Shown here piece after piece: positions 15,934 through 62,649 of a DNA stretch of 64,000 bases (position 1 is its first letter; the number at the start of each line of letters is the position of its first letter). This stretch comes from an uncultured Blautia sp. GTDB lineage: Bacteria; Bacillota; Clostridia; Lachnospirales; Lachnospiraceae. Location: positions 3,339-67,338 of the forward strand of contig CAMOUV010000001.1 in NCBI GenBank assembly GCA_946626695.1, written 5' to 3'. The notes below the pieces were generated by a model, which worked only from the letters and a program-made list of their open reading frames with translations, was not told the DNA's origin and searched no databases. The translations under genes were made by a program, and so were the position numbers.

Positions 15934-15944
15934 GGAGCTATGGA

Positions 15945-17210
15945 ATGAATGAGATTCGGGATCTGATCATCGGAATCGATTTTGGAAAAGAAAATACACA
16001 GCTCTGCTACTATGACCGCAAGGCGGATGAGCCCCGCTCGATCTCCATGAAGGTGGGAGCCAATGTCTACGAAGCTCCAACGGCTTTATGCCGGAGAGCC
16101 GGGCAGGCCGAATACTCGGTGGGAATCGAGGCGGAATATTTTTCCCGGGAGAAAAACGGTTATCTGATCGAGAATCTCTACGAGATCACCGGGAAGGAGG
16201 AGCCGGTGCAGGTGCTGGAGGAATCCAGGGAGCCCTGGGAGCTGGCGGCTTCTTTTATCAAAGGCATGCTGCGGTATCTCGGGGTGATGGAAGTGATCCG
16301 GAACACCCGCTGCCTGTGCATCGCCACCCCGTCTCTCACGGATATCCGGGTGAAAAACCTGAAGCGTGCCTGCACATCCCTCGGGATCCCGGAGGACCGT
16401 TTTCTGCTGATGGATTACGGGGAAAGCTTCTTTTATTATGTGATGACGCAGAAAAAAGAGGTGGTGAACCGCAGTGTGGCCTGGTACATTTTTGACGGCA
16501 ATGAGGTCACCTTCCGGAAGCTTTCGGTCAACAACGCCAGAAAGCCCGTCCTGGTACAGCTTGAGGAGCCGGTAACGACGACGCTGCCGGAGACGGCCCG
16601 GGAAAGAGATTCGGCCTTCTGCACGTTTATCCAGGAAACGGTGGGGACGGAGCTGTTCTCCAGCATTCAGATCAGCGGGGAAGGCTTTGACACCGACTGG
16701 GCGAAACAGGCGGTAAAGCTTCTGTGTTTTCAGAAACGGAAGGTATATTATGGAAACAATCTTCATGCGGGAGGAGCCTGCGCGGCGGGAAAGGAACGCA
16801 TGGAGGACCGGAATCTTAAGAATATCCGCTTCTTGAGCCAGTCCATTGTCAGGGAAGACGTGGGGATGGAAATGCTGGTCATGGGGTCTCCGGCCTATGT
16901 GCCGCTGATCACCGGCGGAGAAAACTGGTATGAATGCAGCAGCCGCTGCGAGCTGATCCTCAATAAGACCGAAGACCTGGTGTTTGTGGTTCTGCGGATG
17001 GGCGAGACCGAGAAAAAGCGGGTCGTGATGCATCTTCCCGGACTGCCGGCAAGACCGGACAAGACGACCCGGCTTCTGCTGGAGCTGGCCTATGTTTCGC
17101 CGGACCGCTGCCGCATCACGGTGACGGATCTCGGCTTTGGCGATATGTTCCCCTCCAGCGGAAAGGTCTGGAAGGAGACAGTGAACTGGACAGAGGAGGG
17201 AGTATCATGA
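15945..17210 (+). CDS. DUF5716-family protein; divergent Hsp70/actin-like fold
   Basis: N-terminal IIGIDFG (cf. DnaK IIGIDLG); C-terminal LPGLPARPDKTTRL...VTDLGFG (cf. DnaK SBD-beta). Confidence 0.7.
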   Translation: MNEIRDLIIGIDFGKENTQLCYYDRKADEPRSISMKVGANVYEAPTALCRRAGQAEYSVGIEAEYFSREKNGYLIENLYEITGKEEPVQVLEESREPWELAASFIKGMLRYLGVMEVIRNTRCLCIATPSLTDIRVKNLKRACTSLGIPEDRFLLMDYGESFFYYVMTQKKEVVNRSVAWYIFDGNEVTFRKLSVNNARKPVLVQLEEPVTTTLPETARERDSAFCTFIQETVGTELFSSIQISGEGFDTDWAKQAVKLLCFQKRKVYYGNNLHAGGACAAGKERMEDRNLKNIRFLSQSIVREDVGMEMLVMGSPAYVPLITGGENWYECSSRCELILNKTEDLVFVVLRMGETEKKRVVMHLPGLPARPDKTTRLLLELAYVSPDRCRITVTDLGFGDMFPSSGKVWKETVNWTEEGVS

Positions 17211-18010
17211 CCGGATATATCCTTTGTCAGACAAAACGGACCGAAGTTCCCTTTTATCTGGAGAATATCAGCACCAACATCTACTCTCTGGAGGAGCTTT
17301 GCTATTTTCTGTACAACAATCTGTATCTTGTGGATGAGACTGTGATCCGGGAGGATCTGTGCCGCTGGATCGACACGGAGCTGCATCTGCCCGCCTTGGC
17401 GGCGAAGCTCCGGCCTCATCTGGGCAAGTTTGCGGATCTGCAGGATTTCCTGTATCCGATTTTCAAGGAGATCAATTACCTGACCTATGAGGAGCTGCGG
17501 AATCTGAACGGCCGCCTTGCCTCCCTGGAGGGGGAGACCCTCAGTGTGCGGAAGAAGCTGAAGGGGGATGCCCTGGTGCAGAACGGAATGTATGTCAATG
17601 CCATCCGTTCCTACCGGGAGATCCTTTCTTATGCGGAGTATCGTGTCGAACCGGAGCAGATGACCGAGGGAGAAAGAGAATTCGCATCGAAGGTCTGGCA
17701 TAATCTGGGCTGTGCCTATGCCCGCCTCTTTCAGATGGAAAAAGCGCTGGAATGCTTCTGGAAAAGCTTCGGGATCAGCGGAAAACGGGAGGAACTGAAA
17801 GTTTACCTGCTGGCCTTCCGGAGTGTGAGGACACCGCTGGAATATGAGAGCCGCCTGGCGGAGACCGGAGCGGATCAGGAAATGACGGCGGAGATCGAGC
17901 AGGAGCTGGATCGCTTTGCCCGTCTTCCGGAGACCCCGGTGTACGGGCGGAATATCGACAGTACCCTGGAACGGATCACCCGGGAATATCACAGGAGCAC
18001 AGGATCATAA
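17207..18010 (+). CDS. Conserved hypothetical protein with a TPR-like segment
   Basis: Overlaps the previous stop (ATGA). GDALVQNGMYVNAIRSY and KVWHNLGCAYARLFQMEKALECF are TPR-like helices. Confidence 0.75.
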   Translation: MTGYILCQTKRTEVPFYLENISTNIYSLEELCYFLYNNLYLVDETVIREDLCRWIDTELHLPALAAKLRPHLGKFADLQDFLYPIFKEINYLTYEELRNLNGRLASLEGETLSVRKKLKGDALVQNGMYVNAIRSYREILSYAEYRVEPEQMTEGEREFASKVWHNLGCAYARLFQMEKALECFWKSFGISGKREELKVYLLAFRSVRTPLEYESRLAETGADQEMTAEIEQELDRFARLPETPVYGRNIDSTLERITREYHRSTGS

Positions 18011-25559: not shown

Positions 25560-25593
25560 CAAAATCTCGAAAAACCTCGAAAAAGCTCGAACG
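25560..25593. repeat. Three-unit 10-bp tandem array (A)AAAA[T/C/G]CTCG + AACG, copy 1
   Basis: caaaatctcg aaaaacctcg aaaaagctcg aacg; nearly identical array at 61661-61704. Confidence 0.9.
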
Positions 25594-25606
25594 ATTTTCC
25601 TTCGGA

Positions 25607-25650
25607 TTCGACAGGGTTCGACAAGATTCTGAAAAGAGATCCGTTATAAT
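25607..25650 (+). promoter_or_regulatory. Putative Spo0A-dependent promoter: two perfect 0A boxes over the -35 region plus TATAAT
   Basis: TTCGACA at 25607-25613 and 25617-25623 (reverse complement of TGTCGAA); TATAAT at 25645-25650; no consensus -35. Confidence 0.7.
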
Positions 25651-25718: not shown

Positions 25719-26336
25719 ATGTACGGCACACAGGCGGAAAAAACGGCCGGTTACAAAGAAGAACAGGATCTGCTGCGGCGGATGCGGAGAGAGAAGGACA
25801 GGAAGGCCCGGGAACGGCTGATCTGCGGATCTCTCTGGATGGTCCGGCATATTGCAGGGCAGTTTCACGTATATGGAACCGCTGAGGATCTGGTTTCCGT
25901 GGGAACACTGGGCCTGATCAAGGCCGTGGATTCCTACGACAGCCGGAAGAAAAACCGGCTTGGCTGTTACGCGGTCCGCTGTATTGCCAACGAGATCCGC
26001 ACCTATCTTCGCAAAGAAGGCGCTCACATGACGGTATCGCTGGAGACATTGCCGGACCAGAATCTGTTGTACAGGGAGGGCTCCATGGAACCGATCGGAA
26101 AAACCTATCCAGAGCCGCAGAAAGCGGCGGAAAAAGCCTGGGAGCTGCAGTGCCTCGCGGCGCTGCTGGAGAAACTGCCGGAGATGGACCGGGAGCTGCT
26201 CCGTCTTCGGTTTCTGGAGGACCGGCCGATGACCCAGAGGGAAACGGCAGAGAAACTCGGAACCAGCCAGTCCTATGTCTCCCGCCGGGAAAAAAAGATC
26301 CTCGCCGCTTTACGGGGCGGACTGGAGGCAGAATGA
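25719..26336 (+). CDS. SigE/SigK-family RNA polymerase sigma factor without pro-sequence (SigE-like, divergent)
   Basis: EDLVSVGTLGLIKAVDSY (region 2.2-2.3), YAVRCIANEI, TQRETAEKLGTSQSYVSRREKKIL (region 4.2, SigE-like SQSY); RBS GAGGGGG. Confidence 0.85.
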   Translation: MYGTQAEKTAGYKEEQDLLRRMRREKDRKARERLICGSLWMVRHIAGQFHVYGTAEDLVSVGTLGLIKAVDSYDSRKKNRLGCYAVRCIANEIRTYLRKEGAHMTVSLETLPDQNLLYREGSMEPIGKTYPEPQKAAEKAWELQCLAALLEKLPEMDRELLRLRFLEDRPMTQRETAEKLGTSQSYVSRREKKILAALRGGLEAE

Positions 26337-38740: not shown

Positions 38741-39340
38741 TCAGTACATGTGCGCCGCGAGAATGGCCCGGATGGTGTGATACAGATCCGGCTTGTAGGC
38801 GGAAAGCTCCACCGGCTGCTGGAAAAGAATGCAGCTGTAGCACGCCGAACCCACCAGTTCCAGGATGGAAAAAAGCATCAGCTCCGGATCCCGGTATCGG
38901 ACGCCGGCCTGGCGCAGGATATCGGGGAAGGCATTTCCGTAGGGATCGTCCTCCTCCGAGATCTCGCGGTCCAGGATCCCGCGGAACATCCCCCAGGAAA
39001 GATTCTTGGAGATAAAAATAAGAAGCGGATGATTATGCTCCAGCTCGTTCAGAATATAATCAACGATGAAAAGAAGCTGATCCTCGAAGGAGGTGAGGGA
39101 GGTCCCTGCCAGGGCGAGGCGCGCCTTATGAAACAGTTCTCCGGTTTTCCGGGAAACCAGCTTGTTCCGGATGTCGTACTTATCCTTGAAATAGAGATAA
39201 AAGGTTCCTTTTGCGACACCGGCCTGTTCCACGATGTCTGAGATGGTCGTTTTTGTCAGTCCCTTTGTGGTAAAAAGCTCAAAGGCGGTCTGGTACATGG
39301 CGTCCTTTTTTTGTTTTTTGTTTACTTCCAGTTTTCCCAT
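38741..39340 (-). CDS. TetR/AcrR family transcriptional regulator
   Basis: AFELFTTKGLTKTTISDIVEQAGVAKGTFYLYFKDK HTH. Confidence 0.93.
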   Translation of the reverse strand: MGKLEVNKKQKKDAMYQTAFELFTTKGLTKTTISDIVEQAGVAKGTFYLYFKDKYDIRNKLVSRKTGELFHKARLALAGTSLTSFEDQLLFIVDYILNELEHNHPLLIFISKNLSWGMFRGILDREISEEDDPYGNAFPDILRQAGVRYRDPELMLFSILELVGSACYSCILFQQPVELSAYKPDLYHTIRAILAAHMY

Positions 39341-39598: not shown

Positions 39599-41731
39599 AT
39601 GATACAGACAGGGAAATGGATTGCAAAACATAAAAAGCTGATCCTCCTGATCTCCGTGCTGCTTCTGATCCCGTCCGCGTTCGGGTATGTATCCACCAGA
39701 GTCAATTATGACCTGCTGAGCTACCTGCCCACATCGCTGGATACGGTGAAGGGCCAGAACATCATGGTGGATGATTTCGGGATGGGAGCTTTTTCCATGA
39801 TCGTTGTTGAGGACATGCCTTTGAAGGATGTCGCCGCTATGAAGGAGGATCTGGAGAAGGTGGATCATGTGAAGAGCGTTCTCTGGTATGACAGCATCAT
39901 GGATCTGTCGGTGCCGGTGGAAATGCTTCCGGAGAGGATCCGGGAGGCGTTCTTCCAGGGAGACGCCACGATGATGATCGCGCTTTTTGATGACTCCACA
40001 TCCTCCGACGCTTCCATGAAAGCCGTGGAGGATCTGCGGAAGATCGTGAAGAAGGACTGTTTTGTGAGCGGCATGACCAGCGTGATCCTGGACGTTCGGG
40101 ATCTTGCCATGCAGGAAATGCCGATCTATGTGGTGATCGCCGCCCTCCTTTCCCTGGTGGTCCTGATGCTGGCCATGGAATCGACGCTGGTGCCTGTATT
40201 GTTCCTCTTAAGCATCGGCTTTGCCGTGGTCTACAACCTGGGCACCAATTTCCTGATGGGACAGATTTCCTATGTGACCCAGGCGCTGGCGGCGGTGCTG
40301 CAGCTGGGTGTGACCATGGATTACTCCATCTTCCTGCTGCACAGCTATCAGCGTTTCAAAAAGGAAATGGAAGGAGACAATGATACGGCCATGGCCTATG
40401 CCATAGCGGCCACCTTCAAATCCGTGGTCGGAAGCTCCGTTACCACCATCGCAGGGTTTGTGGCTCTTTGCTTCATGACCTTCACGCTGGGGCTGGATAT
40501 GGGGATCGTCATGGCCAAGGGTGTCGTGATCGGAGTGATCGTCTGCATCACGGTGCTGCCGGCGATGGTGCTCCTTTTTGACAAGGCGATCGAAAAGACG
40601 ACCCACCGCTCGATCCTTCCTTCCTTTGAAAAAACATCGGCTTTCATCACAAAGCATTCGATCTTCGGACTGGTCCTGTTTGCAGTGCTCTTGTATCCGG
40701 CCGTATACGGCAACAATCATGTGAATGTTTACTACAATATGGATGCCACGCTTCCGAAGGATCTGCCGAGCCAGGTGGCCAACGCAAAGCTGGAAGAGGA
40801 CTTCAACATGAACACCGTCCACATGGTGATGCTGAAAAAAGGAATGTCCTCCAGCGACAAGATTGCCATGAGCGATGAGATCAAAGCGCTGGACGGTGTC
40901 CGCTGGGCACTGGGGGGAAGCACGCTGATCGGCCCGGCCTTCCCGGAATCCATGATCCCGCAGACGCTTCGGGACAAGCTGGAGAGCGACGAGTACGAGA
41001 TGCTTTTTGTCTGCTCGGAGTACCATGTGGCCACGCCGGAGATCAACCGGCAGATCGACCAGCTGAAGGAGATCGTGGAACGGTACAGTCCGTCCTCTCT
41101 GGTGATCGGCGAAGGACCGCTGACCGAGGATCTGATCAAGGTGACGGATACGGACTTCAAAAACGTGAGCGCGGTATCCATCATCGCGATCCTGGTGATC
41201 ATCCTGATTGTGTTCCGTTCGGTGTCCCTGCCGTTCATCCTGGTGGCCGTGATCGAATTTGCCATTTTCATCAACATGGCGGTGCCTTACTACCAGGGCG
41301 TCACGCTTCCCTTTGTGGCGAGCATTATCATCGGAACGGTACAGCTGGGGTCCACCGTTGACTACGCGATCCTGATGACCAGCCGCTTTCAGGCCGAAAG
41401 GTCGGCGGGGAAGAGCAAGAAGGAAGCCATCGCCATCGCCCACAGCGCCAACATGAAATCCATCGTGACAAGCGGTCTGGCTTTCTTTGCGGCGACCTTC
41501 GGCGTAGGTCTGTACTCCGAGGTAGATATGATCAGTGCGATCTGCACGCTGCTGGCCAGAGGCGCTTTGGTCAGCATGGCGGTGGTGCTCCTGGTGCTGC
41601 CGGCCATGTTCATGATCTTTGATCCGCTGATCTGCCATACATCGATGGGCTTTCTGCCCCCGAAGGCAAAGAAAAACAAAAACCAGAACGCAGTATCGGA
41701 CACGGATCTGCGCTCATCACATACCGCGTAA
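39599..41731 (+). CDS. MMPL/RND-family transporter
   Basis: Two repeats of TM + extracytoplasmic domain + 5 TM; QLGVTMDYSIFL and QLGSTVDYAILM motifs. Confidence 0.9.
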   Translation: MIQTGKWIAKHKKLILLISVLLLIPSAFGYVSTRVNYDLLSYLPTSLDTVKGQNIMVDDFGMGAFSMIVVEDMPLKDVAAMKEDLEKVDHVKSVLWYDSIMDLSVPVEMLPERIREAFFQGDATMMIALFDDSTSSDASMKAVEDLRKIVKKDCFVSGMTSVILDVRDLAMQEMPIYVVIAALLSLVVLMLAMESTLVPVLFLLSIGFAVVYNLGTNFLMGQISYVTQALAAVLQLGVTMDYSIFLLHSYQRFKKEMEGDNDTAMAYAIAATFKSVVGSSVTTIAGFVALCFMTFTLGLDMGIVMAKGVVIGVIVCITVLPAMVLLFDKAIEKTTHRSILPSFEKTSAFITKHSIFGLVLFAVLLYPAVYGNNHVNVYYNMDATLPKDLPSQVANAKLEEDFNMNTVHMVMLKKGMSSSDKIAMSDEIKALDGVRWALGGSTLIGPAFPESMIPQTLRDKLESDEYEMLFVCSEYHVATPEINRQIDQLKEIVERYSPSSLVIGEGPLTEDLIKVTDTDFKNVSAVSIIAILVIILIVFRSVSLPFILVAVIEFAIFINMAVPYYQGVTLPFVASIIIGTVQLGSTVDYAILMTSRFQAERSAGKSKKEAIAIAHSANMKSIVTSGLAFFAATFGVGLYSEVDMISAICTLLARGALVSMAVVLLVLPAMFMIFDPLICHTSMGFLPPKAKKNKNQNAVSDTDLRSSHTA

Positions 41732-41789
41732 GGAGCTGCTCTGCTTCTGCAACAGATCCTGAGCTTCATCTGGATGGAGGAATGATAGT

Positions 41790-44700
41790 ATGAACAGAAA
41801 CAGGAAAATAGCAAGTGTGACCATGGCAGCAGGAATGGCTGTGGTTCTGGGCAGCAGCCCGGTCCTTGCCGCCGGAGACGAAACGCTTCCGGTGACGAAG
41901 GAAGAGACCGTATACGTCAATGCAGATGCGTCCGGAGAGACCGAACAGATCATCGTTTCCGACTGGCTGAAAAATTCCGGGAATGCCGGAGGCCAGGTGG
42001 AAGATCTGTCAGATCTTTCGGATATTGAAAATGTGAAGGGCGATGAGACCTTTACCCAGGAAGGAAGCAGGCTGATATGGAATACAGACGGGGCCGATAT
42101 CTATTATCAGGGAACCACGGACAAAGAGCTTCCGGTTTCCATGAAGATCACCTATTATCTGGACGGGCAGGAGATCAGCGCGAAGGAGCTGGCAGGAAAG
42201 AGTGGTCATCTTCGCATGGAGGTTTCGTATGAGAACCATACCGGAGTGGAAAAAATGATCGGCGGAGAAAAGACCACGGTGTATTCCCCCTTCCTTCTGG
42301 CCACGGCCACGCTGCTTCCGACAGACAAATTCACCAATGTGGAGGTGACCAACGGGAAGCTGATCTCGGACGGCAGCCGGGATGTGGTGATCGGATTTGC
42401 GATCCCGGGACTTCAGGAGAGCCTCGATCTTCCGGAAGAGCTTACGGATGAGCTCGAGATCCCGGAAGGTTTTTCCATGGAGGCGGATGTGACGGACTGC
42501 GAACTGAATTCCACCTATACCATCGCCCTGACGGACAGCATCAAGGATCTGGACCTGACCGGCATGGACGGGCTGGACAGCCTGAAGGACAAGATGGATC
42601 AGCTGGAAGAGGCTTCGATGAAGCTGGTGGACGGATCCGGTGAACTGTATGACGGCGTGGATACATTATATACGAAATACAAGGATTTCCACGATGGCGT
42701 GAAGGAGCTGATGAACGGCTCTGCCGAGCTGAACAGCGGCGTGGGGACGCTTGCCTCCGGCGCCGGCGATCTGGCGGATGGAGCGGCAGCTCTCCGGGAC
42801 GGCGCAAGGGATCTGAACAGCGGCGTATCCCAGGTGAATTCCGGGGCTGCGGAACTGGACAGCGGTGCGGGAGAGCTGCGGGACGGCGCCCGGGAACTGG
42901 CAACGGGAGCCCTGCAGGTGAACAGCGGAACGACTGCGCTGTATGACGGTGCGGTGCAGCTGCGGGACGGCGCCCGGGAACTGAGTACGGGAGCCGGATC
43001 CCTGAAGAGCGGAGCATCGGAAGTAAACGACGGTGCAGTGAAGCTTCGCGACGGAGCAAAGGAACTGAGCGCCGGCGCCGATACGCTGAAAGATGGTATT
43101 CAGAGTGCGAAGAGCGGGACGGACGAACTGAAAAGCGGCGCAGCCAGCCTGAATACCGGTGCCGGAACCTTGAAAGCCGGTACCCGGAAGCTTTCCGACG
43201 GAGCGAAGGATCTGGCAGGCGGCGCAGGACAGCTGTCCTCAGGCGTAAAGAATTACACGGACGGAGCGGACAGTCTCTCTGCCGGCGTACAGCAATTCGT
43301 AAGCGGCGTACAGGAAGCACTCACCAAGGTTTCTGAGTACGGGAAAGGCGTGAATACGCTGGCAGAAGGCGTAAAGTCCTATGTGGCCGGCAGCAGCCAG
43401 CTGACCGCCGGTGTAACAGAGTATACGACCGGAGCAGCTTCGCTGGCCAACGGAGTCTTGAGCCTGAACGAGAAATCCGGCGCGCTGATCAGCGGCATCA
43501 CGGATCTTTCCGACGGGATCGATGCATATACATCGGGCGTAGAGTCCGTAAAGAAAGGCTTTGATCAGTATTCGCAGGCTGTCGGTACTCTTTCACAGGG
43601 AACGGCGGCCTTGCAGGAAGGGGCAAAGGCTCTTCCGGATGGAATGGCATCTCTTTCGGAAGGAATCACTGCGGCACAGACAGGAGCTGCGGATCTGCAG
43701 ACCGGCAGCGATTCGCTCGCGTCGAACCTCTCCTCCATAGCAGAGCAGCTGCAGACGGCGGCCGGATCGGTTCCTTCCGTGGATCTTTCCGGCATCAGCG
43801 GTGCGAAGGACAACATCGCAGGAGGGCTTACCACCGCGCAGACCGGTGTTCAGTCCGCAGCCGGATCCGCAGCATCCGTACAGGCAGACCTGACACAGGC
43901 AGCTGCCGTTCTCCAGGGAATCGACACGAGCGCACTGTCTCCGGAAGCCCAGACCGCCATTGCCGGTGCCCTCGCCCAGATCGGGGCGGCGGGAACAGAC
44001 CTTGGCGGGGTATCCGCGGGACTTACCAGCGCGGGCGGCGGACTGCAGACAGCCGCAGCCGGAGCCGAAGCGATCGGTACGGCGGCAGCATCGTTGTCAG
44101 GGATCGATGTATCCGGGATCCAGAGCAGTCTGACTGCCGCCGCTTCCGGAATCAGCCAGTGCGCAGACGGAGCCGGCCGGCTCAGTGCAGGGATCACCCA
44201 GCTGTCCGGCGGACTCACCCAGCTGAAGAGCGGCGCCGATGCGGCGAAGCAGGGAGCTTCCGAAGTCGTTGACAATCTGGGCAAGGTTTCGGAAGGGCTG
44301 AAGGAGCTGGCTTCCAACACACAGCTTACCGAAGGACTGGAGGAGCTCTCCTCCAAGGGAACGGAACTCTCTTCCGGTGCACAGCAGCTGAGCGGTGCCG
44401 TTCCGGAACTGAGCACGGGTCTTTCCCAGCTGGCAGCAGGAGCCCGGACCCTGATCTCTTCCGGCCAGACACTGGCGGCAGGGGCAAAATCTCTGCAGGA
44501 GAACGATACTACACTGACATCCGGGGCAAACGAGCTTTCGGAGGCGACCGGTCAGCTTTCCGGCGGCCTTACACAGATCACGGATGCCGCCGGAAAACTC
44601 TCCGACGGCGCAAAGGAGCTCTCGGCAAACAGCGCAGCTTTGAACAGCGGTGCATCTCAGATCGCGGCGGGCTCGACAGCGCTCGCCTCCGGTGCCGCCG

Positions 44701-45446
44701 AATTGGATACCGGAGCCGCTGCTCTTTCCGGCGGCAGCGGGAAACTGTATGAGGGAATCCGCACTCTTTCTTCCGGCGCAGCCAGACTCTATGACGGAGC
44801 GGCAAATCTTGCGACCGGAGCCGGAACCCTGTACAGCGGGACGAGTACTCTTGCGTCAGGAACAAAGCAGCTCTCTGACGGAGCCGCCGAGCTCTCTACA
44901 GGAGCCGGAACCCTGTACAAAGGAACCCGGGATCTTACGTCCGGGACACAGACTCTTTCGAGCGGAACCTCTCAGCTTGCGGATGGCGCAAAGACATTGT
45001 ATGCCGGCACCAGAACACTGAAATCCGGGACGAGTGAGCTGAGCAGCGGCACTTCGAAGCTCGCAGAAGGAAGCAGTACTTTGTACAAAGGAACCCAGGA
45101 TCTGGCAGCCGGTTCCAACAAACTGTACGCCGGAACGGGAACATTACAGGACGGTACGCTCCAGCTGGCGGACGGAAGCCGTGACCTGTTCAAGGGCAGC
45201 CGTCAGGTGTATGACGGGATCGAAGATCTCCGGGACGGCGCTGAGCAGCTCCGGGATGGAGAAGAGAAATTCAACGAGCAAGGCATAGAAAGGCTGAAAG
45301 AGGTGCTCGGAGATGAGTTTGACAAGATCATGGATCGTCTCGCCGCGGTGCAGGATGAGGATGTGACCTACACCTCCTTTACGGAAAAAGCAGAAGGGAT
45401 GGACGGAAGCATCCGCTTCATCATCGAGACCGAGCCGGTACGATAA
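41790..45446 (+). CDS. Secreted X-X-X-Leu-X-X-Gly heptad-repeat protein (YhgE/Pip-N-like partner of MMPL)
   Basis: Signal peptide, TKEETVYV/YYQGT globular N-domain, roughly 880 residues dominated by xxxLxxG heptads, short C-terminal FIIETEPV. Confidence 0.85.
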   Translation: MNRNRKIASVTMAAGMAVVLGSSPVLAAGDETLPVTKEETVYVNADASGETEQIIVSDWLKNSGNAGGQVEDLSDLSDIENVKGDETFTQEGSRLIWNTDGADIYYQGTTDKELPVSMKITYYLDGQEISAKELAGKSGHLRMEVSYENHTGVEKMIGGEKTTVYSPFLLATATLLPTDKFTNVEVTNGKLISDGSRDVVIGFAIPGLQESLDLPEELTDELEIPEGFSMEADVTDCELNSTYTIALTDSIKDLDLTGMDGLDSLKDKMDQLEEASMKLVDGSGELYDGVDTLYTKYKDFHDGVKELMNGSAELNSGVGTLASGAGDLADGAAALRDGARDLNSGVSQVNSGAAELDSGAGELRDGARELATGALQVNSGTTALYDGAVQLRDGARELSTGAGSLKSGASEVNDGAVKLRDGAKELSAGADTLKDGIQSAKSGTDELKSGAASLNTGAGTLKAGTRKLSDGAKDLAGGAGQLSSGVKNYTDGADSLSAGVQQFVSGVQEALTKVSEYGKGVNTLAEGVKSYVAGSSQLTAGVTEYTTGAASLANGVLSLNEKSGALISGITDLSDGIDAYTSGVESVKKGFDQYSQAVGTLSQGTAALQEGAKALPDGMASLSEGITAAQTGAADLQTGSDSLASNLSSIAEQLQTAAGSVPSVDLSGISGAKDNIAGGLTTAQTGVQSAAGSAASVQADLTQAAAVLQGIDTSALSPEAQTAIAGALAQIGAAGTDLGGVSAGLTSAGGGLQTAAAGAEAIGTAAASLSGIDVSGIQSSLTAAASGISQCADGAGRLSAGITQLSGGLTQLKSGADAAKQGASEVVDNLGKVSEGLKELASNTQLTEGLEELSSKGTELSSGAQQLSGAVPELSTGLSQLAAGARTLISSGQTLAAGAKSLQENDTTLTSGANELSEATGQLSGGLTQITDAAGKLSDGAKELSANSAALNSGASQIAAGSTALASGAAELDTGAAALSGGSGKLYEGIRTLSSGAARLYDGAANLATGAGTLYSGTSTLASGTKQLSDGAAELSTGAGTLYKGTRDLTSGTQTLSSGTSQLADGAKTLYAGTRTLKSGTSELSSGTSKLAEGSSTLYKGTQDLAAGSNKLYAGTGTLQDGTLQLADGSRDLFKGSRQVYDGIEDLRDGAEQLRDGEEKFNEQGIERLKEVLGDEFDKIMDRLAAVQDEDVTYTSFTEKAEGMDGSIRFIIETEPVR

Positions 45447-51053: not shown

Positions 51054-52643
51054 TTGCCTGACTATAGAAAAGAAATCGAAAAGAGACGCACCTTTGCCAT
51101 CATCTCTCACCCGGATGCAGGCAAGACGACCCTGACCGAGAAATTTCTGCTGTATGGAGGAGCCATCAATCTTGCCGGCTCCGTCAAGGGGAAAGCCACT
51201 GCCAGACATGCGGTTTCGGACTGGATGGAGATCGAGAAGGAGAGAGGTATCTCCGTGACCTCCTCGGTGCTGCAGTTCCATTATGACGGATACTGCATCA
51301 ATATTCTGGACACGCCGGGACACCAGGACTTCTCGGAGGATACCTACCGGACCCTGATGGCGGCCGATTCCGCCGTCATGGTGATCGACGGCTCCAAAGG
51401 TGTGGAGGCCCAGACCCGGAAGCTGTTCAAGGTATGCGTCATGCGGCATATCCCGATCTTCACCTTCATCAATAAGATGGACCGGGACGCCAATGATACC
51501 TTCGACCTCCTGGATGAGATCGAGAAGGAGCTGGGCATCGCCACCTGTCCGGTCAACTGGCCCATCGGATCCGGCAAGAAGTTCCGCGGTGTGTACGACC
51601 GGAATACCCGACGGATCCTGACCTTCTCCGATACCCAGAAGGGAACGAAGGAAGGAATTCAGGAGGAGATTCCGCTTTCCGACGAGCATGCGGCGGAGGT
51701 GATGGACCCGGAGCAGATGGAACAGCTGCTGGAGGAGATCGAGCTTCTGGACGGGGCCAGCGCAGATTTTGACCAGGAAAAAGTGAGCAGGGGAGAGCTG
51801 ACGCCCGTGTTCTTCGGCTCCGCCCTTACGAACTTCGGTGTGGAGACCTTCCTGCAGCATTTCCTGCAGATGACCACATCCCCCCTGCCGAGAAATTCGG
51901 ACAACGGACTGATCGATCCGATGGACGATTATTTTTCCGCCTTCGTATTCAAGATTCAGGCAAACATGAACAAAGCCCACCGGGACCGGATCGCCTTTAT
52001 GCGGATCTGCTCCGGACGTTTTGACGCCTCCGAAGAAATCTATCACGTACAGGGCGGTAAAAAGATGCGTCTGCTGCAGCCCCAGCAGATGATGGCGGAA
52101 TCCCGCCATGTGGTGGATGAAGCCTATGCGGGCGACATCATCGGCGTGTTTGACCCGGGCATTTTCTCCATCGGGGACACTGTGGCCGCTCCGGGACATA
52201 CCTTCGCCTTCGAAGGCATCCCCACCTTCGCGCCGGAACATTTCGCCCGGGTGACCCAGCTGGATACCATGAAGAGAAAACAGTTCGTCAAAGGCATCAA
52301 TCAGATCGCCCAGGAGGGTGCCATCCAGATCTTCCAGGAGCTGAACACGGGTCTCGAAGAGATCATCGTGGGCGTGGTGGGCGTGCTGCAGTTCGATGTG
52401 CTGAAATACCGCCTGGAGAACGAATACAATGTGGACATCCGTCTTGACATGCTTCCCTACGAGCATATCCGCTGGATCTCCAACAAGGAGGAAGTGGATG
52501 TGGGCAGGCTCACCGGAACCTCCGACATGAAAAAGGTGACGGACCTCAAAGGCAATCCCCTGCTTCTCTTTGTGAACGCCTGGAGCGTCGGCATGACCCT
52601 CGACCGCAACCCGGGGCTGGTCCTGGCGGAATTCTCGCGCTAA
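51054..52643 (+). CDS. prfC: Peptide chain release factor 3
   Basis: RRTFAIISHPDAGKTT, DWMEIEKERGISV, DTPGHQDFSEDTYR, FKIQANM...HRDRIAF. Confidence 0.97.
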   Translation: MPDYRKEIEKRRTFAIISHPDAGKTTLTEKFLLYGGAINLAGSVKGKATARHAVSDWMEIEKERGISVTSSVLQFHYDGYCINILDTPGHQDFSEDTYRTLMAADSAVMVIDGSKGVEAQTRKLFKVCVMRHIPIFTFINKMDRDANDTFDLLDEIEKELGIATCPVNWPIGSGKKFRGVYDRNTRRILTFSDTQKGTKEGIQEEIPLSDEHAAEVMDPEQMEQLLEEIELLDGASADFDQEKVSRGELTPVFFGSALTNFGVETFLQHFLQMTTSPLPRNSDNGLIDPMDDYFSAFVFKIQANMNKAHRDRIAFMRICSGRFDASEEIYHVQGGKKMRLLQPQQMMAESRHVVDEAYAGDIIGVFDPGIFSIGDTVAAPGHTFAFEGIPTFAPEHFARVTQLDTMKRKQFVKGINQIAQEGAIQIFQELNTGLEEIIVGVVGVLQFDVLKYRLENEYNVDIRLDMLPYEHIRWISNKEEVDVGRLTGTSDMKKVTDLKGNPLLLFVNAWSVGMTLDRNPGLVLAEFSR

Positions 52644-52668
52644 AACATCCTGCGGAAAAGAATTTCCG

Positions 52669-52697
52669 TTTACTTTTCATGCCGGATATGCTATAAT
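52669..52697 (+). promoter_or_regulatory. sigma-A promoter of the asp23-nusB-xse-isp-dxs operon
   Basis: TTTACT-17 bp-TATAAT with TG extension. Confidence 0.65.
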
Positions 52698-52766
52698 TCT
52701 TGTTCAGGATTTATTTCGTTTACGATCCGGTAAGGAACCGTTCCTAAGCGGGACATGGAGGTCACA

Positions 52767-53150
52767 ATGGCTGAGAAAAGAACAGTATATAAAATCAAAG
52801 ATGCAGAAGGGATCGGAGAGGTCCACATTTCCGACGAAGTCATCGCCATGATCGCGGCTCTGGCAGCGACGGACGCGGAAGGCGTTTCCCTGAACGGAAA
52901 CAGCACAAAAGAACTTCGCTCAAAGTCGAGCACAAAGAACCTGTCCAAGGGCGTACGCCTGACGATCCAGGACGGTACGGTCAAGGCAGACCTGAACCTG
53001 AACCTTGCCTATGGCAAAAACATTCTGGAAACCAGCAAGACAGTACAGGAAAGAGTAAAATCTTCCATCGAGAACATGACGGGACTGAGTGTTTCCGATG
53101 TAAACATTCATGTCGGAAGCGTCAACATGGTAGAAGAAAAAGCAAAGTAA
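52767..53150 (+). CDS. Asp23/Gls24 family protein (YqhY-like)
   Basis: GEVHISDEVIAMIA, YGKNI, VQERVKSSIENMTGLSV..VNIHV; precedes nusB. Confidence 0.9.
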   Translation: MAEKRTVYKIKDAEGIGEVHISDEVIAMIAALAATDAEGVSLNGNSTKELRSKSSTKNLSKGVRLTIQDGTVKADLNLNLAYGKNILETSKTVQERVKSSIENMTGLSVSDVNIHVGSVNMVEEKAK

Positions 53151-53246
53151 AGAAATGTCTGCTTTGGGACATTGGGCAGGGCTGTTGCAAAATTCAGTAT
53201 GCATCTGTTTTTTACAACAGCCTTCTGTATTATTCGGGAGGAAATC

Positions 53247-53660
53247 ATGCGTCGACGGGAATTGCGGGAGCATATTTTCAAGCTGCTTTTCATGGCAGAA
53301 TTCAACACGCCGGAGGAAATGCCGGAGCAGCTCAGACTGTATTTTGAGAACATGGAGGCCCTGGAGGAGAGCGATCAGCAGTACATGGAGCAGAAGTATG
53401 CGGCGGTCCGGGAAAAGCTGTCCGGGATCGATGAACGGCTGAACGGGACCAGCAAGGGGTGGAAGACCGGCAGAATGAACAAGGTGGATCTTTCCGCGCT
53501 CCGCCTGGCGGTCTACGAAATGCTCTATGACGAGACGATCCCGGCAGGGGTTGCCATCAACGAGGCGGTGGAGATCGCGAAGAAATTCGGCGGGGAAGAT
53601 TCCCGGTCCTTCGTGAACGGGATCCTCGGAAAGATCGCCGCAGGGGAAGAGAATGCATAA
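53247..53660 (+). CDS. nusB: Transcription antitermination factor NusB
   Basis: RRRELRE, GWKTGRMNKVD..ALRLA, VAINEAVEIAKKFG, FVNGIL. Confidence 0.95.
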   Translation: MRRRELREHIFKLLFMAEFNTPEEMPEQLRLYFENMEALEESDQQYMEQKYAAVREKLSGIDERLNGTSKGWKTGRMNKVDLSALRLAVYEMLYDETIPAGVAINEAVEIAKKFGGEDSRSFVNGILGKIAAGEENA

Positions 53661-59988: not shown

Positions 59989-61662
59989 ATGCTGGTACAT
60001 CTTCACGTAAAGAATCTGGCCCTGATCGCGGAGGCGGAGGTATCCTTCGGACCCGGGCTTAACATACTGACCGGCGAGACCGGAGCCGGCAAATCGATCC
60101 TGCTGGGCTCCATGCAGCTGATCCTTGGAAGCAAGATCAGCCGCAGCATGATCCGGGATCCCGAGACCTATGCGCTGGTGGAACTGCTGTTTGAGGTCGA
60201 AAACGAGAAGGCTTTGAAGGAACTGCGCGCGATGGACATCGAGCCGGAGGATGGGCAGGTCCTCCTGTCCCGGAAGATCACCGGCGGCCGGAGCGTGAGC
60301 AAGATCAACGGTGAAACCTGTACGGTCAGCCAGATGAAGGCGGCAGCCTCCTGTCTTCTGGATATTCACGGACAGCATGAGCATCAGTCTCTTCTGTACC
60401 GGGACAGACAACTGGAGATCCTGGACGCCTTTGCGCAGGATACCGTCCGTCCTCTGGCGGAAAAGACGGCTGAAAGCTTCCGGGCACTGCGGGAGAGCCG
60501 GAAGGCGCTTTCGTCTCTCACGATGGATCAGGAACAGCGGGCCAGAGAAATGGCTTTCCTGGAATACGAGATCCAGGAGATCGAACAGGCGGATCTGAAA
60601 CCCGGAGAGGACGAGGAGCTGGAAAAACGCTACCGCAAGCTGTCCAACAGCCGGCGGATGATGGAGACCCTGTCCCGGGTCCGTGCCCTGACGGGATATG
60701 AACAAGGCGCGTCCGAACAGACCGGGGAAGCGGTGCACGAAATGGCGAAGATCCTTCAGTTTGACGAAGATCTGCAGGACTGTCATGAGCTGCTGGTGCA
60801 GGCGGATGCCCTGCTCTCGGATTTCGGCCGTGAGCTGTCCTCCTATATGGACGACCTGGTCTTCGACGAAGAGACCTACTATGAGACGGAAAAACGGCTG
60901 GATCTGATCAACGGTCTGAAATCACGCTTCGGACAAAGCATTCCGGACATACTGGCCTACCGGGACCGGCAGGCGGAAAAATACGCCCTTCTTGCGGATC
61001 TGGAAAAGCATCTGGCGCAGGCTCAGCGAAAAGCACAGGAAGCGAAGGATGTCTATGACAAGGCCGCTTGCGCTCTGTCCGCGGAACGGAAAAAAGCCGC
61101 GTCGGAGCTGGAAAAACAGGTGATCCGGTCCTGCAAGGACCTGAATTTCCTGGATGTCCGGTTCTCGATCCGCTTTGACGAAAAGAACGAGTCGGCGGAC
61201 GGAACGGATGATGTGGAATATGAGATCTCCACCAACCCGGGGGAGGAAATCCGTCCTCTGGGAGAGATCGTGTCGGGCGGAGAACTGTCCCGTATCATGC
61301 TTGCGCTGAAAACCATCCTGGCAGACCGGGATCAGATCGATACGCTGATCTTCGATGAGATCGATACCGGCATCAGCGGCCGCACGGCCCAGAAGGTATC
61401 CGAGAAGATGGCGCAGATCGCCCGTCACCGTCAGGTGATCTGCATCACCCATCTGCCCCAGATCGCGGCCATGGCGGATCAGCATTATGAGATCGAAAAG
61501 CACGGCGATGAGGTGAACGGGACCGAGACCCAGATCCACCTTCTCGACGCGGAGGAGTCCGTGCGGGAACTGGCCAGACTCCTGGGGGGAGCCTCCATCA
61601 CCCCCGCCGTACTGCAGAACGCGCGGGAAATGAGGGCCATGGCTCTGGAACAAAAAGGATAA
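59989..61662 (+). CDS. recN: DNA repair protein RecN
   Basis: LTGETGAGKS, IHGQHEHQ, STNPGE, SGGELSRIML, FDEIDTGISG, ITHLPQIAA. Confidence 0.96.
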   Translation: MLVHLHVKNLALIAEAEVSFGPGLNILTGETGAGKSILLGSMQLILGSKISRSMIRDPETYALVELLFEVENEKALKELRAMDIEPEDGQVLLSRKITGGRSVSKINGETCTVSQMKAAASCLLDIHGQHEHQSLLYRDRQLEILDAFAQDTVRPLAEKTAESFRALRESRKALSSLTMDQEQRAREMAFLEYEIQEIEQADLKPGEDEELEKRYRKLSNSRRMMETLSRVRALTGYEQGASEQTGEAVHEMAKILQFDEDLQDCHELLVQADALLSDFGRELSSYMDDLVFDEETYYETEKRLDLINGLKSRFGQSIPDILAYRDRQAEKYALLADLEKHLAQAQRKAQEAKDVYDKAACALSAERKKAASELEKQVIRSCKDLNFLDVRFSIRFDEKNESADGTDDVEYEISTNPGEEIRPLGEIVSGGELSRIMLALKTILADRDQIDTLIFDEIDTGISGRTAQKVSEKMAQIARHRQVICITHLPQIAAMADQHYEIEKHGDEVNGTETQIHLLDAEESVRELARLLGGASITPAVLQNAREMRAMALEQKG

Positions 61663-61704
61663 AAAGCTCGAAAAACCTCGAAAAATCTCGAAAAAGCTCG
61701 AACG
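61661..61704. repeat. Four-unit 10-bp tandem array AAAAA[G/C/T]CTCG + AACG, copy 2
   Basis: aaaaagctcg aaaaacctcg aaaaatctcg aaaaagctcg aacg; matches 25560-25593. Confidence 0.9.
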
Positions 61705-61740
61705 AAAAAGGGGCCGGAAGGCCTCTTTTTCCTTGCTTTT
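61705..61740 (+). terminator. Probable intrinsic terminator after recN
   Basis: AAAAAGGGGCC-GGAA-GGCCTCTTTTT followed by further T-runs. Confidence 0.6.
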
Positions 61741-61848
61741 TTCGCCGTAAAATGATAAGTATTTGTGTGGGAGGACAATCCGGAAAGCGGAGGGTCCTGC
61801 CGGAAGCGGCCGCTTCGGAAACGAATCGGAAGGAGGGGAGCTTATCCA

Positions 61849-62487
61849 TTGAACAAAATTAATGTTGCCGTTGCCTCGGAGGGAGAGCTGCAGTCGGATG
61901 ATGTGCTGGGACGGATGATCCTGGAGGATGACTCGCTGCAGTATGTGGGAACGGTGAGAGGAGAAAAAGATCTGGAAACGCTGATGGAGGTGAATCCGCC
62001 GGATGTTATCCTGTTCCACACGATCGTCCCGAAGCTCTGGAGACGGAACGGACGGCTCTTTTTCGGGGCCCAGAACGTGGGAGGCACCCGGTATGTCATC
62101 CCGGGAACGGTCCTTCCCCTGCGGGAAGAGAATCTGGAGCTCATCATCAGCAATCTTTTTCATGAGCTGGGGATCCCGGCCCATATCAGCGGGTTCCAGT
62201 TCCTGCGGGACGCGGTGGTCCTGGCGGTCTATGACCGGGAGATGATCCGGAACATCACAAAGGTCATGTATCCCACCATCGCGAAGAAAAACATGACCAC
62301 GCCTTCCCGGGTGGAACGGGCGATCCGCCATGCCATCGACACGGCCTGGGAAAGAGGAAACATGTCCCGCATCAACGAACTCTTCGGCTTTACGGTGAAG
62401 GAGGAGACTGCAAAACCATCCAACCGCGAATTCATCGCGATGATCTCCGACAAGATCCGCACGGACTGGAAAAACCGCAGCTACTGA
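61849..62487 (+). CDS. spo0A: Spo0A ortholog with intact DNA-binding domain and degenerate, truncated receiver domain (212 aa)
   Basis: HELGIPAHISG, ITKVMYPTIAKK, TTPSRVERAIRHAI, KPSNREFIAMISDK; sits after recN; TTG start after GGAGGGGAG. Confidence 0.88.
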   Translation: MNKINVAVASEGELQSDDVLGRMILEDDSLQYVGTVRGEKDLETLMEVNPPDVILFHTIVPKLWRRNGRLFFGAQNVGGTRYVIPGTVLPLREENLELIISNLFHELGIPAHISGFQFLRDAVVLAVYDREMIRNITKVMYPTIAKKNMTTPSRVERAIRHAIDTAWERGNMSRINELFGFTVKEETAKPSNREFIAMISDKIRTDWKNRSY

Positions 62488-62550
62488 AAAAAGAGAGGCT
62501 TTCCGGCCGGAAATTCTAACAATCTGCCGAAATGTTTTCGCTGAAACGGG

Positions 62551-62579
62551 TTGCCCGTTGTGGAATTTTGCGGTATAAT
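62551..62579 (+). promoter_or_regulatory. sigma-A promoter of glgA, with TGCCGAA (0A-box consensus TGNCGAA) at 62525-62531
   Basis: TTGCCC-17 bp-TATAAT. Confidence 0.65.
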
Positions 62580-62649
62580 CAGAGGGAAAGAGCGGGCAGC
62601 GGGCCCGCCGTACGATTCCGTGGAAAAATAACCCTGAGGAGGACACCAA

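What the first reader, a model, noticed from the sequence alone, without database searches (positions are those of the whole stretch)
61849..62487. Spo0A with a dead, half-deleted receiver but intact DNA-binding domain: likely a phosphorylation-independent master regulator
Seen: the protein is 212 aa. Its N-terminus KINVAVASEG...PDVILFHTIVP aligns by eye with canonical KIKVCVADDN...PDVLVLDIIMP, so the acidic DD pair is SE and the phospho-acceptor Asp (D56 in B. subtilis) is His. About 55 residues, covering the second half of the receiver (conserved Thr, Lys) and linker, are missing. The recognition helix TTPSRVERAIRHAI and the KPxNxEFIAM tail are well conserved, with no frameshift. Established: the isolated Spo0A C-terminal domain and sad-type deletions just after D56 are active without phosphorylation. 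Inference: this is the genuine spo0A locus, turned into a constitutive or differently controlled transcription factor. It may be the top of a repurposed Spo0A to SigE-like circuit (see the linked findings).
Basis: partly seen in the sequence, partly recalled or inferred. Interest (0 to 1): 0.88.

Follow-up and report, generated by a model that had tools for sequence, protein, structure and literature searches.

The report
Natural half-receiver Spo0A without phospho-acceptor
A group of uncultured rumen bacteria has kept the sporulation master regulator Spo0A at its usual chromosomal place, but with only half of its phosphorylation switch and no phosphorylatable aspartate, so it probably works as a DNA-binding regulator that needs no phosphorylation.

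Summary
Window 61849-62487 (+) encodes a 212-aa protein in three parts. Residues 93-208 are a full Spo0A DNA-binding domain. Residues 1-63 match only the first half (beta1-beta3) of the Spo0A receiver. About 85 receiver and linker positions are replaced by a 29-residue basic segment. The acidic pair is Ser-Glu and the acceptor Asp is His.

It is not an assembly error. At least 15 independent contigs and unitigs from other runs carry it. It sits at the genuine spo0A locus (recN-spo0A-glgA), with spoIVB lost.

It belongs to a small monophyletic clade from ruminant gut metagenomes with two branches. One branch still has the three Asp residues, so the truncation came before the loss of the acceptor.

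All three segments are under purifying selection (dN/dS about 0.1-0.2). The receiver remnant is therefore not "dead".

Two perfect tandem 0A boxes lie 21 nt upstream of the -10 element of an orphan SigE-like sigma gene (25607-25650). This layout is conserved in a relative and matches a canonical spoIIGA promoter, which supports a retained Spo0A-to-sigma link.

Not shown: constitutive activity, expression, and absence of a second spo0A copy.

Verdict: a real, new natural variant of a known regulator.

The parts
61849..62487 (+). Truncated spo0A orthologue, 212 aa, TTG start, stop codon included
61849..62037 (+). Residues 1-63: first half of the Spo0A receiver (beta1-alpha1-beta2-alpha2-beta3 and the PKL motif). 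The DD pair is S10-E11 and the acceptor Asp is H57.
   Evidence: Custom receiver profile, 32 bits, model positions 1-62 only. AF2 strands and helices at pLDDT 71-82. dN/dS 0.12.
62038..62124 (+). Residues 64-92: conserved Arg/Lys-rich segment that replaces alpha3 through alpha5 and the linker. Its fold is unknown.
   Evidence: AF2 pLDDT below 50. Alignable between subclades A and B. No significant similarity to beta4/beta5 (hhalign P 0.17). dN/dS 0.07-0.2 in subclade A.
62125..62484 (+). Residues 93-212: Spo0A_C DNA-binding and transcription-activation domain
   Evidence: PF08769 E 1.6e-39. 1fc3/1lq1 E 1e-40. Foldseek TM 0.91-0.95.
61667..61702 (+). Four 10-bp phased CTCGAAAAAn repeats (0A-box-like TCGAA cores plus A-tracts) between the recN stop codon and the recN terminator, about -101 to -66 from the inferred spo0A start site
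61704..61731 (+). Intrinsic-terminator-like hairpin ending recN
61733..61761 (+). Inferred sigma-A promoter of spo0A: TTGCTT, 17-nt spacer with TG, then TAAGTA. Conserved in the four subclade A relatives.
   Evidence: Alignment A3. Inference only.
61803..61816 (+). Perfect 14-bp palindrome GAAGCGGCCGCTTC in the spo0A leader, conserved in 3 of 4 subclade A relatives
25607..25623 (-). Two perfect tandem 0A boxes (TGTCGAAcccTGTCGAA on the - strand), the only intergenic perfect boxes in the window. They lie about -50 and -40 from the sigma gene start site.
   Evidence: Conserved in L022.
25645..25650 (+). TATAAT -10 element, 21 nt after the proximal 0A box (spoIIG-like long spacer)
   Evidence: Same geometry in L022 and in a canonical spoIIGA promoter, L023.
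25566..25591 (+). Three CTCGAAAAAn repeats of the same kind as those upstream of spo0A, about -91 to -66
25719..26336 (+). Orphan, divergent SigE/SigK-like sigma factor (205 aa) with no pro-sequence and no spoIIGA. Probable target gene.

Best explanation
This is the vertically inherited spo0A orthologue of a small clade of uncultured ruminant-gut Lachnospiraceae. An ancestral in-frame remodelling removed everything after beta3 of the receiver (alpha3 to alpha5 and the linker) and left a conserved 29-residue basic segment. In the window's branch the acidic pocket (DD) and the acceptor Asp were lost afterwards. The protein therefore cannot be switched by Asp phosphorylation. This much is shown by sequence.

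Its intact Spo0A_C domain most likely still binds 0A boxes (TGTCGAA). It probably activates a sigma-A promoter with spoIIG-like geometry in front of an orphan SigE-derived sigma gene that lacks its pro-sequence. It probably also acts on its own promoter region, which shares a phased CTCGAAAAA repeat array with the sigma promoter. These steps are inferred from conserved cis-elements.

Activity would then be set by the amount of protein, or by an unknown partner of the conserved N-terminal half-domain and basic segment, and not by a kinase or phosphorelay. This is inferred by analogy with the phosphorylation-independent Sad67 deletion and the isolated Spo0A C-domain of B. subtilis.
For: Domain anatomy.

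Orthology and loss of spoIVB: identical synteny in both subclades, and a full-length relative carries spoIVB and an FHA gene between recN and spo0A.

Reality of the sequence: at least 15 contigs plus independent unitigs.

Function retained: dN/dS is 0.07-0.22 in all three segments across subclade A and 0.02-0.36 in subclade B. Intact ORFs exist in at least 7 lineages down to 48% identity.

Single origin: the short clade is monophyletic in 195 of 200 bootstraps. Subclade B keeps DD and D56.

DNA-binding residues: S210-H218 (B. subtilis numbering) are identical, and G227, F236 and V240 of the sigma-A-activating region are kept (residue roles from memory of Zhao 2002 and Buckner 1998).

Target: the only intergenic perfect 0A boxes in 64 kb are a tandem pair spaced 10 bp apart, 21 nt upstream of TATAAT of the sigma gene. 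The 96-bp promoter is 83% identical in a relative whose sigma protein is only 54% identical. A canonical spoIIGA promoter shows the same TTCGACA-21 nt-TATAAT layout.

Precedent for phosphorylation-independent forms: Sad67 (PMC4689505, PMC4495169) and receiver-less phage Spo0A (PMC10294663).
Against: There is no direct evidence of expression. Only a 193-nt metatranscriptome contig touches the last 37 nt of the ORF.

DNA binding and activation were not tested.

The N-terminal half-domain and basic segment are conserved, so they do something. They could inhibit the C-domain until a partner acts, in which case the protein is not constitutive.

Subclade B keeps the three Asp residues under very strong constraint (dN/dS 0.017), which is unexplained if phospho-chemistry was abolished by the truncation.

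A second, canonical spo0A elsewhere in the genome could not be excluded. Ten of 118 Spo0A-positive genomes in Galperin 2022 have paralogues, and a Lachnospiraceae member has three.

The total count of 0A boxes in the window is not enriched (6 observed, 8 expected).
Confidence: 0.6

Rival explanations
1. The protein is functional but not constitutive. The conserved half-receiver and basic segment form a new regulatory module, for example for partner-protein or ligand binding, obligate dimerisation, or autoinhibition relieved by a partner. On this reading the protein is 'differently controlled' and not always on.
For: The N-terminal 62 residues and the 64-92 segment are as constrained as the DNA-binding domain. 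The mid segment has motifs shared between subclades at 48% identity. Subclade B keeps its acidic pocket.
Against: No partner is encoded next to the gene in any of the loci. In B. subtilis, deletions after residue 62 relieve inhibition (Sad67; deletion coordinates recalled from Ireton 1993).
Confidence: 0.25
2. It is a second-function paralogue or competitor. A canonical phosphorylatable Spo0A exists elsewhere in the genome and still runs sporulation. The short form only modulates it, for example by competing for 0A boxes.
For: Spo0A paralogues occur in Clostridiales. The whole genome could not be searched here.
Against: The short gene occupies the ancestral spo0A position in all seven lineages. 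spoIVB is deleted next to it, and spoIIIA is absent from its usual place upstream of asp23-nusB. The only sigE-like gene seen is a fast-evolving orphan without spoIIGA.
Confidence: 0.1
3. It is a decaying relic (incipient pseudogene) of sporulation loss and has no function.
For: Sporulation neighbours are lost. The receiver is broken. NCBI's Spo0A model score is below its cutoff.
Against: dN/dS is about 0.1-0.2 with dS of 0.6 to over 1. Reading frames are intact across two subclades. The RBS, promoter and target boxes are conserved.
Confidence: 0.03
4. It is an assembly or frameshift artefact, or a phage-derived receiver-less spo0A inserted at this site.
For: The sequence is MAG-derived. Phages do carry receiver-less spo0A.
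Against: At least 15 independent contigs, unitigs from other hosts and studies, and relatives with the same architecture. The N-terminus is homologous to the Spo0A receiver. The chromosomal synteny is conserved, with no phage genes nearby. GC3 is the same as in the neighbouring genes.
Confidence: 0.02

Closest known systems
Canonical Spo0A (B. subtilis / Clostridia; TIGR02875; PDB 1FC3, 1LQ1)
   Same: Spo0A_C domain, 54% identical to the solved structures, with an identical recognition helix. Same chromosomal neighbourhood (…dxs-tlyA-nadK-argR-recN-spo0A). 0A boxes in front of a sigE-type gene.
   Different: Only beta1-beta3 of the receiver remain. D10, D11 and D56 are replaced by S, E and H. 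The conserved Thr and Lys, alpha4-beta5-alpha5 (the dimerisation face) and the linker are absent. spoIVB is missing next to it.
Spo0A-Sad67 and the isolated Spo0A C-terminal domain (laboratory constructs, B. subtilis)
   Same: The loss of receiver sequence starts right after the PxL motif that follows beta3. The Sad67 deletion was recalled as residues 63-81. Activity is expected to be independent of the phosphorelay (PMC4689505, PMC4495169).
   Different: This form is natural, fixed in a clade and under purifying selection. The deletion is larger. The acceptor Asp is also lost. A conserved new basic segment is present.
Receiver-less spo0A homologues carried by gut phages (Schwartz et al. 2023, PMC10294663)
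   Same: A Spo0A effector domain without a working receiver. The same inference of signal-independent activity applies.
   Different: Those are phage genes with no receiver at all. This one is the chromosomal orthologue, vertically inherited, and retains a constrained half-receiver.
Aspartate-less receiver (ALR) / atypical response regulators (Maule et al. 2015, PMC4395418)
   Same: A response-regulator descendant that has lost the phospho-acceptor yet stays functional.
   Different: ALRs keep a complete receiver fold. Here more than half of the fold is gone, and Pfam REC no longer matches.
Spo0A of asporogenous Firmicutes (Galperin 2012, 2022)
   Same: spo0A is retained after apparent loss of sporulation genes.
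   Different: The described cases are full-length REC+Spo0A_C proteins, or a 'degraded' Macrococcus gene. No half-receiver clade is mentioned.

Membership tests
Spo0A (TIGR02875 equivalog) | Spo0A_C DNA-binding domain (PF08769) | tested here: met
   E 1.6e-39 with full model coverage. Matches 1fc3/1lq1 by sequence and by predicted fold.
Spo0A (TIGR02875 equivalog) | N-terminal receiver domain (PF00072) with acidic pocket, acceptor Asp, and conserved Thr and Lys | tested here: not met
   No PF00072 match at E<=10. Only model positions 1-62 of a Spo0A receiver profile align. DD is S-E and D56 is H.
Spo0A (TIGR02875 equivalog) | Whole-protein score above the curated cutoff | tested here: not met
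   167.2 bits against a cutoff of 200.
Spo0A (TIGR02875 equivalog) | Orthologous position downstream of recN(-spoIVB) | tested here: met
   Synteny compared with the full-length locus L003. spoIVB itself is absent.
Spo0A (TIGR02875 equivalog) | Binds 0A boxes and controls early sporulation promoters such as spoIIG | not testable with these tools
   Indirect evidence only: an identical recognition helix, and conserved tandem 0A boxes with spoIIG-like spacing before a sigE-derived gene.
Two-component response regulators | Activity controlled by phosphorylation of a receiver Asp by a kinase or phosphotransferase | tested here: not met
   No Asp at the acceptor position (H57; R, R and S in the relatives). 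Kinases could not be searched.
Aspartate-less receiver (ALR) regulators | Complete (beta/alpha)5 receiver fold lacking the acceptor Asp | tested here: not met
   AF2 predicts only beta1-alpha1-beta2-alpha2-beta3. Residues 61-91 have pLDDT below 50. hhalign of the mid segment to beta4/beta5 is not significant.
Phage-borne receiver-less Spo0A | Encoded on a phage or prophage, with the effector domain only | tested here: not met
   Housekeeping chromosomal context with no phage genes in 64 kb. The N-terminal receiver half is present.

The most novel reading that the evidence does not exclude
In a non-sporulating rumen Lachnospiraceae lineage, the top of the sporulation cascade has been stripped of both of its checkpoints and reused. 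A Spo0A that needs no phosphorylation drives, through ancestral spoIIG-type 0A boxes, a SigE descendant that needs no SpoIIGA processing. The retained half-receiver has become a new, possibly dimerising or partner-binding, module. The phased CTCGAAAAA arrays shared by both promoters would be a new recognition element for this protein or its basic arm.
Probability: 0.35. Interest if true: 0.75.

Novelty: new variant of a known kind. Interest (0 to 1): 0.6.

Why it matters
Spo0A is the textbook example of a phosphorelay-controlled master regulator. Phosphorylation-independent forms are known only as laboratory alleles (Sad67, the isolated C-domain) and as phage genes.

A chromosomal, vertically inherited half-receiver form kept under selection shows that nature has made the same cut. 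It offers a natural experiment on three questions: what the Spo0A effector domain does once uncoupled from kinases, how response regulators evolve after losing their switch (truncation first, Asp loss later), and what becomes of sporulation circuitry in gut bacteria that stop sporulating.

There is also a practical point. spo0A presence is widely used as a marker of sporulation potential in gut and rumen metagenomes, and this clade would be a false positive.

Tried and rejected
1. Remnants of beta4 and alpha4-beta5 in residues 64-92. MAFFT suggested LWRRNGRLFF ~ LKKTPAFIVV and AQNVGGTRYVI ~ AFNLGAYYYML. hhalign gave P = 0.17, so this is not claimed.

2. RNA evidence. Four metatranscriptomes gave only a 193-nt contig at 62451-62643 and short cross-matches in glgA. 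This is inconclusive.

3. General enrichment of 0A boxes. There were 6 perfect boxes against 8 expected, so there is no enrichment. Only the tandem intergenic pair is meaningful.

4. A relaxed 0A box (TGCCGAA, 62525) before the glgA promoter. It is not conserved in relatives and was dropped.

5. Search for sigma orthologues in JGI metagenome contigs. This returned only one near-identical locus and three distant ones. The informative relative came from the protein search.

6. Second spo0A in the same genome. The single genome-contig scan returned only the 68% relative and two full-length loci of other MAGs. The window's own genome is not in that collection, so this was not testable.

8. Literature searches for a described half-receiver or aspartate-less Spo0A found none. 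They did find the phage precedent.

Full report
**1. What is in the sequence**

Window 61849-62487 (+) is an ORF of 212 codons. It starts at TTG, 12 nt after an AGGAGG. A longer reading from GTG 61765 (240 aa) exists, but all homologues start at M-(N/D)-K-I-N-V-A.

- Pfam finds one domain, Spo0A_C (residues 100-203, E 1.6e-39, full model). It finds no receiver domain even at E <= 10.
- NCBI's Spo0A equivalog TIGR02875 matches only its positions 144-260. It scores 167 bits, below the cutoff of 200. This is probably why no source names the protein.
- The solved Spo0A effector domains 1FC3 and 1LQ1 match residues 92-208 at E about 1e-40 and 54% identity.
- An AlphaFold2 model superposes on 1FC3 and 1LQ1 with TM 0.91-0.95 and rmsd 1.0-1.8 Å.

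**2. The N-terminus**

I built a profile from the receiver plus linker of 81 full-length relatives (147 positions). It aligns residues 1-63 to positions 1-62 at 32 bits and stops there.

In that alignment, canonical A-I-A-D-D-N is A-V-A-S-E-G, and canonical V-L-L-D-I-I-M-P-K-L is V-I-L-F-H-T-I-V-P-K-L. So the acidic pair is Ser-Glu and the acceptor Asp is His57.

The remaining 85 profile positions (alpha3, beta4 with the conserved Thr, alpha4, beta5 with the conserved Lys, alpha5, linker) are replaced by 29 residues (64-92). That is a net loss of 56 residues.

AlphaFold2 predicts beta1 (4-9), alpha1 (19-26), beta2 (30-36), alpha2 (39-48) and beta3 (53-56) at pLDDT 71-82. Residues 61-91 are below 50.

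MAFFT suggested that 64-92 keeps faint remnants of beta4 and alpha4-beta5. A profile-profile test gave P = 0.17, so I do not claim this. The observation as a whole is confirmed.

**3. It is real and it is the genuine locus**

- The identical protein is encoded on at least 15 contigs from several assemblies.
- Read-length unitigs from independent goat and sheep gut runs cross the junction with no indel.
- The gene order is prfC-asp23-nusB-xseA-xseB-ispA-dxs-tlyA-nadK-argR-recN-spo0A-glgA-recA-recX-rny. From general knowledge of B. subtilis, this is the deeply conserved Firmicutes spoIIIA…spo0A region.
- A full-length relative (L003, REC+Spo0A_C) has recN-spoIVB (Peptidase_S55)-FHA protein-spo0A-glgA.
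- So the short gene sits in the ancestral place, and spoIVB has been lost beside it.
- No spoIIIA operon precedes asp23 in the window (its expected position is from memory).

**4. A small clade, and the order of events**

Protein searches find seven short relatives in two groups.

| Group | Members | Length | Identity to the window protein | Receiver residues |
|---|---|---|---|---|
| Subclade A | window protein, P0002, P0003, P0004/P0134 | 212 aa | 86%, 70%, 68% | Acidic pair lost. Acceptor position is H, R, R, S. |
| Subclade B | P0005, P0006, P0010/P0139 | 213-214 aa | about 48% | Same truncation after V-P-K-L, but A-D-D and I-F-D kept. |

- Both groups have the same synteny without spoIVB.
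- The short proteins are monophyletic in 195 of 200 NJ bootstraps (149 of 200 with the C-domain alone).
- The truncation therefore happened once. Loss of the aspartates followed in the window's branch.
- The first 95 residues, searched against 1.84 billion cluster representatives, return only these two groups and a few fragments.
- All samples that could be traced are ruminant gut metagenomes.

**5. Selection**

Nei-Gojobori dN/dS, window versus P0002 (dS about 0.6):

| Segment | dN/dS |
|---|---|
| Residues 2-62 | 0.12 |
| Residues 63-92 | 0.07 |
| Residues 93-212 | 0.12 |

- More distant pairs in subclade A give 0.1-0.2, with dS saturating.
- In subclade B the N-terminal part is at 0.017.
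- The gene is therefore functional.
- Contrary to the word "dead", the half-receiver and the basic segment are as constrained as the DNA-binding domain.
- The mid segment has a motif shared by both subclades: L-x-x-x-N-x-R-L…Y-x-I…L-x-L-R-E.

**6. The DNA-binding domain**

- The recognition helix (S-R-V-E-R-A-I-R-H, B. subtilis 210-218) is identical and lies in invariant columns of 88 homologues.
- G227, F236 and V240 of the sigma-A-activating region are kept.
- A257 is Ser.
- The functional roles of these residues are recalled from the literature and were not tested here.

**7. A probable target**

Perfect 0A boxes (TGTCGAA) are not enriched overall (6 found, 8 expected). However, the only intergenic ones are a tandem pair at 25607-25623, reading TTCGACAgggTTCGACA on the + strand.

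- The 10-bp spacing is that of the tandem sites in the 1LQ1 complex.
- The pair lies 21 nt upstream of TATAAT (25645-25650), in front of a 205-aa sigma gene (25719-26336).
- That sigma scores best against SigE and SigK models, far below their cutoffs (122 bits against 339). It lacks the first ~30 model positions, which are the pro-sequence. aroD lies upstream of it where spoIIGA would be.
- Its only close relative in 5.8 billion proteins is 54% identical. The next relatives (~42%) are canonical sigE genes behind spoIIGA.
- In the 54% relative, the 96-bp promoter is 83% identical, while the coding DNA is 65% identical. Both 0A boxes, the 21-nt spacer and the -10 element are kept.
- A canonical spoIIGA promoter (L023) shows the same TTCGACA-21 nt-TATAAT layout.

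This is a phylogenetic footprint of a Spo0A-activated, spoIIG-type promoter. It has been retained in front of a sigE descendant that has lost SpoIIGA processing.

**8. A shared repeat array**

Three phased CTCGAAAAAn repeats lie at 25566-25591, and four lie at 61667-61702, upstream of spo0A itself (none of 100 shuffles reached this count).

- Both arrays are about -66 to -100 from the inferred start sites.
- The array is present in subclade A relatives in evolving form (GTCGAA, CACGAA cores). It varies in copy number between strains.
- Subclade B and full-length relatives have ordinary TGTCGAA boxes upstream of spo0A instead.
- The repeats may be weak 0A-like sites, bent DNA, or sites for the basic segment. 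This is unexplained.

**9. Mechanism**

Shown by sequence: the protein cannot be controlled by Asp phosphorylation, it is the orthologue, and it is under selection.

Inferred:
- It binds 0A boxes through an unchanged effector domain.
- It activates the sigma gene.
- It may autoregulate.
- It is active without a kinase, by analogy with Sad67 (active without the phosphorelay; PMC4689505, PMC4495169) and with the isolated C-domain.

The Sad67 deletion coordinates (63-81), recalled from Ireton 1993, would start at the same point as this natural truncation.

Whether the protein is constitutive or gated by a partner of the conserved N-terminal module is open. The strong conservation of that module, and the retained Asp residues in subclade B, argue that it still has a role.

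**10. Comparison and novelty**

- Spo0A in non-spore-formers is well known. Paralogues also occur, so a second copy cannot be excluded (Galperin 2012, 2022).
- Receiver-less spo0A has been reported in gut phages, with the same inference of signal independence (PMC10294663).
- Aspartate-less receivers are a known class, but they keep the whole fold (PMC4395418).
- I found no description of a chromosomal, conserved half-receiver Spo0A.
- I therefore rate it a new variant of a known kind.

**11. What could not be done**

- A whole-genome search for a second spo0A, for kinases and for the sporulation gene set.
- Proof of expression. Metatranscriptome contigs barely touch the gene.
- Any biochemical test.

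**12. Verdict**

Interest is moderate to high for specialists in sporulation and two-component signalling (0.6). The finding also shows that spo0A presence can mislead when used as a marker of sporulation in metagenomes.

Noticed in passing
window 25719-26336 (+), promoter 25566-25650: An orphan SigE/SigK-like sigma factor (205 aa). It has no pro-sequence and no spoIIGA, and it evolves fast (nearest relative 54% identical). Its promoter carries two perfect tandem 0A boxes 21 nt from TATAAT. This layout is conserved in L022 and resembles a canonical spoIIGA promoter (L023).
   Followed up: yes
window 25566-25591 and 61667-61702; L004 9830-9854; L022 494-519: 10-bp phased CTCGAAAAAn repeat arrays at the same distance upstream of both the sigma gene and spo0A. 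Copy number differs between strains (3 in L004, 4 in the window). The binding factor or role (weak 0A boxes, A-tract bending) is unknown.
   Followed up: partly
window 61803-61816: A perfect 14-bp palindrome GAAGCGGCCGCTTC in the inferred spo0A leader, conserved in 3 of 4 subclade A relatives. It could be an operator or an RNA hairpin.
   Followed up: no
window 51054-53660 and 59989-61848: Sporulation genes are missing from their usual places. No spoIIIA operon lies between prfC and asp23-nusB. No spoIVB (and no FHA gene) lies between recN and spo0A, although the full-length relative L003 has both of the latter.
   Followed up: partly
P0005, P0006, P0010 (loci L013, L008, L016): Sister subclade B has the same truncation but keeps D10, D11 and D56, with dN/dS of 0.017 in the half-receiver. 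It is unclear why an acidic pocket is preserved in half a receiver.
   Followed up: partly
P0040 (223 aa), P0030 (252 aa): Single-contig Blautia-like Spo0A proteins with other internal receiver deletions. They may be assembly artefacts or independent rare variants.
   Followed up: no
window 12400-18010 (+): A large conserved gene trio of unknown function: DUF5717 (1177 aa), DUF5716 (421 aa) and a TPR protein (267 aa).
   Followed up: no
window 39599-45446 (+): An MMPL-family membrane protein followed by a 1218-aa protein with 11 XXXLXXG heptad repeats. A divergent TetR regulator lies at 38741-39340 (-).
   Followed up: no
window 62451-62643: A 193-nt metatranscriptome contig (run X14) is identical to the spo0A 3' end plus the spo0A-glgA spacer. 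It could be read-through transcription or DNA carry-over.
   Followed up: partly
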